Of a stretch of DNA of 64,000 nucleotides, positions 14,338 through 16,081 are shown piece after piece. Source of the stretch: Verrucomicrobiia bacterium. GTDB taxonomy: Bacteria; Verrucomicrobiota; Verrucomicrobiia; Limisphaerales; UBA1319. The number at the start of each line of letters is the position of its first letter. The stretch's first letter is position 1. The notes beneath the pieces are model-generated. The model ran no database searches. It was not told the origin of the DNA and saw only the letters and a program-made list of their open reading frames with translations. The translations under genes and the position numbers were made by a program. The stretch spans positions 2,592,001 to 2,656,000 of the forward strand of contig OY760937.1 of assembly GCA_963664225.1 (NCBI GenBank). The letters are read 5' to 3'.

Positions 14338-14413
14338 GCCTCGGTAGCTCAATTGGTAGAGCAGTTGACTCTTAATCAATTGGTTTCCGGTTCAAGTCCG
14401 GACCGAGGCACCA
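14338..14413 (+). tRNA. tRNA-Lys (anticodon CTT)
   Basis: cloverleaf GCCTCGG/CCGAGGC, D-arm GCTC/GAGC, anticodon arm GTTGA-CTCTTAA-TCAAT, T-arm TCCGG-TTCAAGT-CCGGA, encoded CCA; 76 nt. Confidence 0.97.
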
Positions 14414-14639
14414 CTTTTTTCAAATTCACTCCCCTCAAAAAAGCTGATGATTGTTTTAATCGCATTTACCTTTATCGATGGGATCTCGATCCCGGTTCAA
14501 TCGCTGGCTTTCCATCCAGAACACGATATCGTGCATTTTATCTTGTCTTATCAATGAGAGCTTGTTACTATGACGCCATAAGCTGGATTAAAGCCATGGA
14601 ATAACGACCGATTCAACTGGGCTGAGGAAAATCATTAAG

Positions 14640-16022
14640 ATGAGATTCATCAAAACATTTTCTGCAATTGTGGCGGCATTTGCGGGTTTTTTCCTTTGCG
14701 CGTCCGCACAAGCCCAATTCGATTACACGACCAATAACGGCACCATCACCATCACCAAATACACTGGCCAAGGCGGTGCAGTGACCATTCCTGACACAAT
14801 CAGTGGTCTGCCGGTCGCCACCATTGGAACCAATGCGTTTTATCGCTGTGATAGCCTGACCAACATTACGATAGGCACCAGTGTCACCAGCATTGAAAAC
14901 TCGGCTTTCTCTAGCTGCCACAGTTTGATAAACGTCACGATTCCAAATAGCCTTTGCAGCATTGGGATTTATGCGTTCTTTTGGTGCAGCAGCCTGACCA
15001 ATATGACTATCCCAAACGGCGTTACTAACATCGGAAGCGGTGCGTTTAGTCAATGTTCCAACCTGTCCAAAATCACGATCCCCAACAGCGTTATCAGCAT
15101 CGGGAACAATGCTTTTTCCTTTTGTTCCAGCCTGGCCAGCATCACGATCCCCAATAGTGTCGTCAGCATTGGAAGCTGTGCGTTTGCGCCCTGTCCCAAT
15201 TTGGAAGCAATCGCCGTGAATGAAAACAACTCCACCTATAGCAGCCTGGCTGGTGTATTGTTCGACAAGAGTCAGGCCACGCTGATTCAATATCCGGGGA
15301 GCCAATCCAGAATCTATACGGTCCCCAACAGTGTTACCCGCATCGGGGATTCCGCGTTCTCTGACTGCTATAGCCTGGCCAGCGTCACAATCCCCAACAG
15401 CGTTACTAACATCGGGGACGGAACGTTCCATAGGTGTTGCAGTCTGACCAATGTCACGCTTCCCAACAATCTCACCAATATCGGTGATGGAATGTTCTTT
15501 GCCTGTATTAGGCTGAATAGTGTCACAATCCCCAACAGCGTCACCAGAATCGGTGGTTCTGCGTTCTACTACTGTGAAAATTTAACCAACGTTACGATCC
15601 CTAATACCGTCACCACTTTAGGTGATGCTGCGTTCCTTGACTGTATCAGCCTGACTCACATCTATTTTCAAGGTGACGCCCCCAGCCTTGAAAGACATTT
15701 GTGCTTCAATGGCTCCAATGCGACCATCTATTATCTACCGGGCACCACCGGCTGGGGCACTACCTACGGCAGTCGTCCGACTGCATTGTGGACACCGCTG
15801 GTACAAACCACCGATGCCACCTTTGGCGTGAGGAGCAATCAATTCGGTTTTAACATCAACTGGGCCAGTGGACAAACCGTCGTGGTGGAAGCCTGCACAA
15901 ATCCGGTCAATCCCACATGGTCTGCCCTGCAAACCAAAACCCTTACCGATGACTCCTTCTATTTCAGCGATCCCGAGTGGACGAATTATCCCACACGCAT
16001 CTACCGTCTGCGAGTTCCGTAG
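14640..16022 (+). CDS. BspA-type (LRR_5) leucine-rich-repeat surface protein 1
   Basis: signal peptide; 23-aa repeats [16 protein letters not shown]-terminal domain ending RIYRLRVP. Confidence 0.92.
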   Translation: MRFIKTFSAIVAAFAGFFLCASAQAQFDYTTNNGTITITKYTGQGGAVTIPDTISGLPVATIGTNAFYRCDSLTNITIGTSVTSIENSAFSSCHSLINVTIPNSLCSIGIYAFFWCSSLTNMTIPNGVTNIGSGAFSQCSNLSKITIPNSVISIGNNAFSFCSSLASITIPNSVVSIGSCAFAPCPNLEAIAVNENNSTYSSLAGVLFDKSQATLIQYPGSQSRIYTVPNSVTRIGDSAFSDCYSLASVTIPNSVTNIGDGTFHRCCSLTNVTLPNNLTNIGDGMFFACIRLNSVTIPNSVTRIGGSAFYYCENLTNVTIPNTVTTLGDAAFLDCISLTHIYFQGDAPSLERHLCFNGSNATIYYLPGTTGWGTTYGSRPTALWTPLVQTTDATFGVRSNQFGFNINWASGQTVVVEACTNPVNPTWSALQTKTLTDDSFYFSDPEWTNYPTRIYRLRVP

Positions 16023-16041
16023 GGATGGAGACGTTTTCACC

Positions 16042-16081
16042 GGTTTCCGGTTCAAGTCCGGACCGAGGCACCACTTTTTTC
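16042..16081 (+). repeat. attR-like copy of tRNA-Lys 3' end
   Basis: GGTTTCCGGTTCAAGTCCGGACCGAGGCACCACTTTTTTC identical to 14382-14421. Confidence 0.95.

What the first reader, a model, noticed from the sequence alone, without database searches (positions are those of the whole stretch)
14382..16081. Integrase-free single-gene cassette integrated at tRNA-Lys
Seen: the last 32 nt of tRNA-Lys plus 8 nt of trailer (40 bp) recur identically 1660 bp downstream, 19 nt after the stop of the only enclosed gene, a BspA-type LRR protein whose sampled lines are lower in GC than the housekeeping genes. Established: tRNA 3'-end duplications are the attL/attR signature of site-specific integrase islands, which usually carry their integrase and are much larger. 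Inference: this is a minimal non-autonomous cassette mobilised in trans, which would excise as a 1660-bp circle carrying one surface-protein gene. Perfect repeat identity suggests recent or ongoing activity.
Basis: partly seen in the sequence, partly recalled or inferred. Interest (0 to 1): 0.8.

Follow-up and report, generated by a model that had tools for sequence, protein, structure and literature searches.

The report
Integrase-less island remnant at tRNA-Lys
A single gene for a leucine-rich-repeat protein, predicted to be secreted, sits between a lysine tRNA gene and an exact 40-base copy of that gene's end; it is most likely the stranded leftover of a larger mobile island that lost its integrase, an ordinary and already described kind of remnant rather than a new mobile cassette.

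Summary
A 40-bp direct repeat (tRNA-Lys(CTT) positions 45-76 plus 8 nt) encloses one intact BspA-type LRR gene, and three runs show the insert at the same depth as its flanks.

The reading 'active cassette mobilised in trans' is not supported:
- No integrase of the tRNA-Lys 3' types was found among the genome's 12 tyrosine recombinases.
- Arm-type repeats are missing on both sides; only 4 bp separate the gene unit from the right repeat.
- Low GC is shared by 25 paralogs that have no tRNA-derived flanking repeats.
- 0/40 mismatches allows up to 7% divergence.

This tRNA end is an insertion hot spot in the order. Of 13 other genomes with a same-contig 3' copy, 10 carry an integrase island (one with a BspA gene). 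The other 3 carry 1.1-2.3-kb integrase-free inserts (one BspA gene, one LRR pair, one unknown gene).

Best reading: an eroded, CIME-like remnant of a T-arm-class integrase island (about 0.65). An integrase-independent insertion with long target duplication is the main rival (0.2). An empty site or circle was neither seen nor testable with contigs. The scan already noted the same kind of remnant in other genomes.

The parts
14338..14413 (+). tRNA-Lys(CTT), intact target gene with encoded CCA
   Evidence: ARAGORN; Rfam RF00005 73.5 bits
14382..14421 (+). Left copy of the 40-bp repeat (attL-like core): tRNA positions 45-76 with the whole T arm, plus 8 nt trailer
14422..14536 (.). 115-bp unique non-coding stretch; no integrase remnant, no arm-type tandem repeat, no other copy in the genome or in the loci fetched
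14537..14639 (+). Upstream region alignable to that of the paralog at C1:402132-403334 (likely promoter / 5' leader of the gene family)
14640..16022 (+). BspA-type LRR gene, 460 aa: N-terminal signal-peptide-like segment (read by eye), 23-residue LRR_5 repeats, C-terminal domain shared with verrucomicrobial paralogs; near-ortholog P0007 (368 identities in 414 aa, two repeats shorter)
16023..16041 (+). 19-bp gap; weakly resembles the trailer of the closest paralog (P about 0.03, best of six paralogs tested); no room for an element-derived arm
16042..16081 (+). Right copy of the 40-bp repeat (attR-like core), the displaced 3' tRNA fragment
16232..17650 (+). Flank outside the repeats: ECF sigma-70 gene of an expanded family
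19042..25605 (+). Flank outside the repeats: three more BspA-type LRR genes (751, 564, 741 aa) without tRNA-derived repeats

Best explanation
The 1.62-kb insert is one intact BspA-type LRR gene between a tRNA-Lys gene and an exact copy of its last 32 bases plus trailer, and it is most likely the eroded remnant of a larger island that a tyrosine integrase probably inserted at the T arm of this tRNA and that later lost its integrase and arm sites by deletion. Shown: the repeat, the single gene, no integrase sequence and no arm repeats inside, and integrase islands and small integrase-free inserts at the same tRNA in relatives. Inferred: (1) an island carrying the gene integrated by T-arm-class ('J') recombination, restoring the tRNA on the left and displacing its 3' part to the right; (2) deletions removed everything except the cargo gene with about 100 bp of its own upstream DNA, leaving bare cores; (3) the remnant is now inherited vertically and could be lost only by occasional host recombination between the 40-bp repeats; (4) the protein is probably secreted and works as one of 26 interchangeable LRR binding proteins of this genome.
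For: Hot spot: 38 of 289 genomes with the tRNA-Lys 3' motif have 2 or more copies, this genome included (401 searched; a few second copies are other tRNAs). I saw the places for 32 of the 37 others. Thirteen have both copies on one contig; 10 of these hold a tyrosine integrase and 3 hold none (1133, 1547, 2333 bp). Geometry: T-arm-class islands there have exact blocks from tRNA position 41-50 with 0-17 nt trailer; ours is 45 and 8. Progenitor type exists: G360 has a 7-kb island with integrase (PF00589 E 1.6e-17) plus a BspA gene. End state exists independently: G213 has a 2.3-kb integrase-free insert with one BspA gene, and G370 a 1.5-kb insert with two LRR genes. A syntenic relative (L071, PEPCK 86% identical) carries at this spot a 46-aa N-terminal stump homologous to the integrase beside tRNA-Lys in G199. 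This genome has a second att-bounded block with no PF00589 or serine-recombinase hit inside, at tRNA-Pro(GGG), 14.8 kb. Decay of att-bounded islands to CIMEs of 1.2-13 kb is described (PMC5704250, PMC7563491; passages read).
Against: No element-derived sequence is left to prove an integrase origin. Two deletions (or one, plus a gene that already abutted the core) must be assumed, one ending within about 4 bp of the gene unit. The BspA genes of G360 and G213 are only 30-33% identical to ours in the C-terminal domain and do not group with it, so they show the route, not the ancestor. The repeats are still identical, whereas those of G213 and G370 each differ by a base. No close relative with the empty site or with a larger island carrying this same gene was found. 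The arm score is crude: G017 (integrase-bearing) and G213 also score at random level.
Confidence: 0.65

Rival explanations
1. [quoted passage not shown]
For: The insert is almost only the gene unit: 1501 of 1620 bp align to a paralog's upstream region, gene and trailer. There are no arms and no integrase stump. Insertions with 44-49 bp duplications and no mobility genes are described (PMC2853133, passages read).
Against: The duplicated block covers the T arm and ends in the trailer, as integrase-made blocks do at this tRNA in 5 relatives. PMC2853133 assigns its tRNA-overlapping, integrase-bearing cases to site-specific recombination, and its integrase-free cases concern restriction-modification genes. 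Similarity of the two trailers beyond the 40-mer is not significant (P 0.29).
Confidence: 0.2
2. One reading: a minimal non-autonomous cassette that an integrase encoded elsewhere would excise as a 1660-bp circle and re-insert, recently or at present.
For: Perfect repeats with an intact T-arm core; an intact gene; LRR cargo in 2 of 3 other small integrase-free inserts at this tRNA. A visiting element with a cognate integrase cannot be excluded.
Against: No cognate integrase found: the G360-type integrase has no match in the genome (0 of 1 at E 0.01). The other tRNA-Lys 3'-side integrases match only the tRNA-Gly or tRNA-Met integrases, at 24-38%, or nothing. No arm repeats. Insert depth equals flank depth in 3 of 3 evenly covered runs (two are one sample and all may stem from the genome's source). 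No second copy of the unit or of the 40-mer. Pieces 93-99% identical, plus the flank, occur in an unrelated peat metagenome, which suggests age.
Confidence: 0.1
3. Assembly artefact, or a free 1660-bp circle placed into the chromosome by the assembler.
For: Logan contigs break at the repeat, so they cannot fix the order: a 40-bp repeat is longer than the 31-letter word.
Against: The genome is one 5.78-Mb contig. The insert has depth ratio about 1.0 in three runs, has no replication gene, and an X4 contig bridges the right copy with 73 and 286 bases on either side.
Confidence: 0.03

Closest known systems
CIME (cis-mobilizable element) of streptococci, including those at tRNA-Lys(CTT) of Streptococcus agalactiae (PMC5704250, PMC7563491; passages read; the 215-CIME count is second-hand from PMC7563491)
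   Same: att-bounded, no integrase or transfer genes, carries cargo, size within 1.2-13 kb, 3' end of a tRNA-Lys(CTT) gene
   Different: Only the bare cores are detectable, without arm repeats, so cis-mobilisation is doubtful; descent from an ICE or IME is not shown; host is a verrucomicrobium; not in tandem with a live element
Islander-type tDNA islands, T-stem/T-loop ('J') class (PMC4383910; passages read)
   Same: Intact tRNA plus displaced 3' fragment downstream in the same orientation; fragment covers the T arm
   Different: No integrase and under 2 kb, so it fails Islander's integrase and length filters
Insertion with long target duplication (Furuta et al. 2010, PMC2853133; passages read)
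   Same: Duplication over 30 bp around a small insert without mobility genes
   Different: Cargo is not a restriction-modification system; the duplicated target is a tRNA 3' end that integrases use in relatives; the empty allele needed for that classification is not in hand
BspA-type LRR proteins (Pfam PF13306)
   Same: 23-residue repeats, E 5.8e-89
   Different: Short (460 aa), with a verrucomicrobial C-terminal domain of no Pfam or NCBIfam family; far below the cut-off of the named adhesin families; surface location untested

Membership tests
CIME | No integrase gene | tested here: met
   No HMM hit at E<=1 in six frames of the insert; tblastn with 18 tRNA-Lys integrases hit only the tRNA-coded letters in the part of the output that was shown
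CIME | No conjugation or mobilisation genes | tested here: met
   The single gene is LRR_5; 115 bp of other DNA
CIME | Retains attL and attR sites | tested here: inconclusive
   Cores identical; arm-type tandem repeats not found (scores 6 and 5 of 9, null median 6), but the score is crude and also low in one integrase-bearing island
CIME | Derived by deletion from an ICE or IME | tested here: inconclusive
   No direct progenitor found; analogues G360 and L071; no relaxase search was made on them
CIME | Transfers by accretion with an ICE or IME | not testable with these tools
   No element in tandem
Islander-type tDNA island (J class) | tRNA plus same-strand 3' fragment downstream | tested here: met
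Islander-type tDNA island (J class) | Contains or overlaps a tyrosine integrase gene; 2-200 kb | tested here: not met
   1660 bp
Trans-mobilised cassette | Cognate recombinase elsewhere in the genome | tested here: not met
   Not found with these queries; genome 96% complete; the specificity of the resident recombinases is inferred from position only
Trans-mobilised cassette | Circle or empty-site junctions in the population | not testable with these tools
   Only 31-mer contigs are held, and a 40-bp repeat hides the junctions; depth ratio about 1.0
Insertion with long target duplication | Duplication over 30 bp, insert under 20 kb, no mobile-element genes | tested here: met
Insertion with long target duplication | Restriction and modification genes in the insert | tested here: not met
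Insertion with long target duplication | Empty allele with a single target copy in a close relative | tested here: inconclusive
   No locus joining the tRNA to the sigma gene among the 34 loci, nor in 5 family genomes
BspA-type LRR (PF13306) | LRR_5 repeats over the Pfam cut-off | tested here: met
   294.9 bits against 27.7

The most novel reading that the evidence does not exclude
In this verrucomicrobial order the 3' end of tRNA-Lys(CTT) is a swappable slot for LRR surface-protein genes. Islands deliver them (G360), shrink to 1.5-2.3-kb integrase-free units (this genome, G213, G370), and the bare 40-bp cores let the units be exchanged between strains by a visiting integrase or by host recombination. 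That would be a minimal, arm-independent cassette route for varying LRR repertoires.
Probability: 0.1. Interest if true: 0.6.

Novelty: new member of a known kind. Interest (0 to 1): 0.22.

Why it matters
As it stands it is an ordinary but clean example of how accessory genes become fixed at tRNA hot spots: an island shrinks to its cargo and drops below the filters of island finders (integrase required, 2 kb minimum; PMC4383910). The one point of wider interest is the recurrence of LRR cargo at this tRNA in unrelated families of the order (BspA in 2 of 13 other inserts, a different LRR pair in a third). I did not test this for significance, and these genomes are rich in such genes. If bare cores were shown to recombine without arms, it would add a very simple cassette route for surface-protein variation in soil and peat Verrucomicrobiota.

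Tried and rejected
Reads: no RNA holder was listed, which says nothing on expression. Circle and empty-site junctions cannot be told from 31-mer contigs because the repeat is 40 bp; no joint between the repeats was among the joints shown, and 16 and 29 rows were not shown. X4 and X5 hold about half the words, which first looked like an empty site; their contigs are patchy over the flanks too, cover parts of the insert, and the ends I checked fall on GATC, so I read them as proximity-ligation libraries (inference) and drew nothing from their holes. X7 (share 0.06) holds only a 90% identical sigma gene piece.

Low GC as a sign of foreign origin: rejected (amino-acid composition alone predicts 0.53).

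A family of repeat-flanked BspA cassettes in this genome: 0 of 25 paralogs have a tRNA-derived flanking repeat; 2 of 25 show a 12- or 17-bp match between their flanks. BspA genes near tRNAs: 2 of 25 within 500 bp against 0.78 expected, P 0.19. Recent duplication from a paralog: rejected; the sister in the C-terminal-domain tree is P0007 (100/99), not a paralog (53 rows, 6 short hits skipped, P proteins under 60% identity left out, bootstrap not settled).

Further or degenerate copies of the repeat downstream: none. Serine-recombinase elements that insert at the last bases of tRNAs here (L044, L060, L064; this genome's tRNA-Leu) duplicate only the last few tRNA bases, so they do not fit. 5'-side integrases at tRNA-Lys (G034, G036, L044, L046) leave 5' fragments, so they do not fit. 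A 24-nt duplication in G005 borders an N gap and was dropped.

Terminator, promoter or RNA function of the right copy or the 115-bp arm: 0 sites, folding z -0.65 to 0.19, no Rfam family beyond the tRNA. Viral contigs: 0 matches to the repeat core; 5 distant BspA loci, not examined.

Papers: 0 hits for BspA + leucine-rich repeat + Verrucomicrobia + genomic island; 0 for the five-term search. Supplements were not read. The DNA around P0007 could not be obtained, which leaves the age of the insert open.

Full report
1. Observation. tRNA-Lys(CTT) lies at 14338-14413. Bases 14382-14421 recur exactly at 16042-16081. The block is tRNA positions 45-76 plus 8 nt of trailer and holds the whole T arm. 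It occurs twice in the 5,783,426-bp single-contig genome; tRNA-Arg(TCG) shares 31 of the 32 tRNA bases, but the right copy has the Lys allele and trailer. Between the copies lies one gene, 14640-16022, 460 aa, BspA-type LRR (PF13306, E 5.8e-89), ending 19 nt before the right copy. The host is a member of Verrucomicrobiota, judged from titles of records with the same tRNA motif and names of homologues.

2. Is it real DNA? Ten runs were listed, 7 holding the stretch or part of it and none on record as RNA; I laid 7 (X1-X7, X4 twice). X1, X2 and X3 carry the insert without a differing letter, at depth 23.5, 24.7 and 9.44 against flanks of 23.9/23.1, 28.1/21.9 and 8.8/9.94. X1 and X2 are one sample, and all three may be the genome's source, so they are not independent. 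Contigs break at the repeat, as 31-letter graphs must, so they can show neither an empty site nor a circle. One X4 contig bridges the right copy (15969-16367). Equal depth argues against a large excised or amplified fraction.

3. The gene does not look foreign. The genome has 26 BspA-type genes, three of them 3-9.5 kb to the right, outside the repeats. GC of the 25 others is 0.44-0.58 (mean 0.52; 8 of 25 at or below 0.50); ours is 0.50, and amino-acid composition alone predicts 0.53. None of the 25 has a tRNA-derived flanking repeat. The C-terminal domain has matches in 9 of 9 other genomes of the family. The nearest protein is P0007, 368 identities in 414 aa and two repeats shorter. In a 53-row tree of the C-terminal domain it is the sister of our protein (100/99), apart from the paralogs (support values rough). 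So the gene belongs to a lineage-wide family and is not a fresh copy of a resident paralog. The signal peptide is read by eye, and secretion is inferred.

4. Anatomy of the insert. Of 1620 bp, 14537-16037 aligns to the upstream region, gene and trailer of the paralog at C1:402132-403334; the trailer part alone is weak (P 0.03, best of six paralogs). That leaves 115 unique bp on the left and 4 bp on the right. No integrase remnant was found. Integrase islands at this tRNA carry short tandem repeats 10-12 bp apart inside their ends, which I read as arm-type sites (that such integrases need arm sites is recalled knowledge). Seven of 8 islands score 8 or 9 of 9 on at least one side, a score reached by 38 of 1000 random 120-mers. 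Our insert scores 6 and 5. The test is crude: G017 (with integrase) scores 6/7 and G213 5/7.

5. No helper recombinase was found. The genome encodes 11 PF00589 proteins, a twelfth found by my own HMM beside the tRNA-Cys fragment, and 5 large serine recombinases. None lies near tRNA-Lys. Those beside tRNAs sit at Gly, Leu, Cys and Met, mostly with their own fragments. The T-arm-class integrase of G360 has no match in the genome. Of 18 tRNA-Lys integrases used as queries, the 3'-side ones match only the tRNA-Gly or tRNA-Met integrases at 24-38%, a XerC/D-like protein weakly, or nothing. Specificity is inferred from position only, and the genome is 96% complete.

6. Relatives. No genome with the tRNA joined to the sigma gene was found. 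The one congener (G001) has other cargo after the tRNA and no synteny. L071, a metagenome contig with PEPCK-tRNA-Lys synteny (86% identical over PEPCK), carries after the tRNA a tandem repeat, a 46-aa stump, a 275-bp piece repeated twice in our genome, and then dusB. The stump matches 5 of 401 genomes, among them the integrase directly after tRNA-Lys in G199.

Across 401 genomes of the order, 289 have the tRNA-Lys 3' motif and 38 have it twice or more, this genome included. I saw the places for 32 of the 37 others. Thirteen have both copies on one contig, and 19 have them on different contigs, some being other tRNAs. Of the 13, ten hold a tyrosine integrase (2.5-40 kb; eight over the Pfam cut-off, G199 just under it, G365 by my HMM only; for G091 and G173 only the ends were fetched). 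Three hold none: G154 (1133 bp, one unknown gene), G370 (1547 bp, two LRR_4-type genes) and G213 (2333 bp, one BspA gene). G091 also has a 77-bp gene-less unit. G360 holds a 7-kb island with an integrase and a BspA gene. In the 11 fully fetched inserts, exact blocks start at tRNA position 28-32 (5 cases, anticodon class) or 41-50 (5 integrase islands, T-arm class); G213 is exact from 41 and reaches the anticodon stem with one mismatch. Ours starts at 45. The G213 and G360 BspA domains are 33% and 30% identical to ours, so these are independent arrivals.

7. Age. Zero mismatches in 40 bp bounds divergence only below 7.2% (95%); at 3.5% the chance of no change is 0.24. Run X6, a peat metagenome from another study, has pieces of the gene (21 differences in 803 bases), of its upstream arm (14 in 191) and of the right flank with the sigma gene (62 in 905). 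The pieces are unlinked and differ in depth (2.4-6 against 9.7), so this is a hint that the unit predates a split between close relatives, not proof. Against great age: the repeats of G213 and G370 have each changed a base and ours have not.

8. Mechanism. Most likely (0.65) an island with this gene integrated at the T arm through a tyrosine integrase and was whittled down to its cargo, losing integrase and arms; each step is inferred from analogues. An integrase-independent insertion with long target duplication (0.2) explains the bare gene unit more simply but not the match to integrase-made blocks. A live trans-mobilised cassette (0.1) lacks a cognate enzyme, arms, second copies and any depth signal. 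An artefact is unlikely (0.03).

9. Known kinds. [quoted passage not shown] Classical ones are 1.2-13 kb, and 215 were reported at tRNA-Lys(CTT) in 303 S. agalactiae genomes (PMC5704250 and PMC7563491, passages seen; the count is second-hand). Strict membership is open, because functional att sites and descent from an ICE or IME are not shown. It fails Islander's integrase and 2-kb filters (PMC4383910, passages) and lacks the restriction-modification cargo of the long-target-duplication class (PMC2853133, passages). Williams 2002 was seen only as a reference entry. Two searches for a description in Verrucomicrobia or of such remnants gave 0 papers; supplements were not read. Earlier notes of this scan describe the same kind at tRNA-Asp and tRNA-Ser in other genomes. 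I had searched the CIME literature before seeing them; the lead to long target duplication came up again through one of them.

10. Verdict. Observation confirmed, interpretation partly supported. New member of a known kind; interest 0.22. The recurrence of LRR cargo at this tRNA is the only lead worth a count.

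Noticed in passing
G000:C1:369742-371702 and 401730-401835 (outside the window): A large serine recombinase lies behind tRNA-Leu(GAG) between perfect 85-bp inverted repeats; a 106-bp direct repeat closes a 32-kb island, and the closest paralog of the cassette gene ends about 300 bp beyond it. Relatives of this recombinase (68% identical in L064) sit at tRNA-Lys in L044, L060 and L064. Already noted by the scan (e1-7662506).
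   Followed up: partly
G000:C1:5380774-5395666 (outside the window): A 14.8-kb block between tRNA-Pro(GGG) and a 75-nt diverged 3' copy, with host-like genes and no tyrosine or serine recombinase hit inside.
   Followed up: partly
G000:C1:5285538 and 5303360 (outside the window): Two tRNA-Gly 3' fragments 18 kb apart with no intact tRNA nearby.
   Followed up: no
G000:C1:3752152-3837319 (outside the window); L039, L040, L044, L046: 5'-side islands: an integrase divergently upstream of the tRNA, with a 5' fragment further upstream at tRNA-Met here (85 kb); the same integrase type sits upstream of tRNA-Lys(CTT) in four relatives.
   Followed up: partly
L099, L114, L115, L116: T-arm-class integrases lie convergent to tRNA-Lys and their reading frame runs antisense into or through the tRNA 3' end, so the att core encodes part of their C-terminus.
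   Followed up: no
L119:5515-5615 (G091): A 77-bp gene-less unit between two tRNA-Lys 3' fragments, microCIME-like.
   Followed up: no
window 14382-14413 and G000:C1:4348306-4348337: tRNA-Lys(CTT) and tRNA-Arg(TCG) share 31 of their last 32 bases and 87% overall, so one integrase could target both.
   Followed up: partly
G000:C1:2410981-2411057: ARAGORN calls a second tRNA-His with anticodon ATG, unusual in bacteria; perhaps a pseudogene or miscall.
   Followed up: no
window 15780-16022, and ends of the genes at 19042-25605 and 33103-41754: A C-terminal domain of about 80 aa ending in an aromatic-R-hydrophobic motif, shared by BspA genes and resembling the end of other secreted-looking proteins here; no Pfam or NCBIfam family; nearest Atlas clusters are unnamed and mostly verrucomicrobial. 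Possibly a sorting domain.
   Followed up: partly
G000:C1:2518234 and 3161319: Two distant BspA genes share a near-identical trailer of about 85 bp with an inverted repeat.
   Followed up: no
window 25618-27498 (-): One ORF appears to join a ThiD-like kinase to an amidohydrolase-like domain with its own signal-like segment (read by eye); may be a fusion or a lost stop.
   Followed up: no
L003:41-1399 (G001): Behind tRNA-Lys the congener carries an RHS-like gene fragment and a MORN-like possible immunity gene (read by eye).
   Followed up: no
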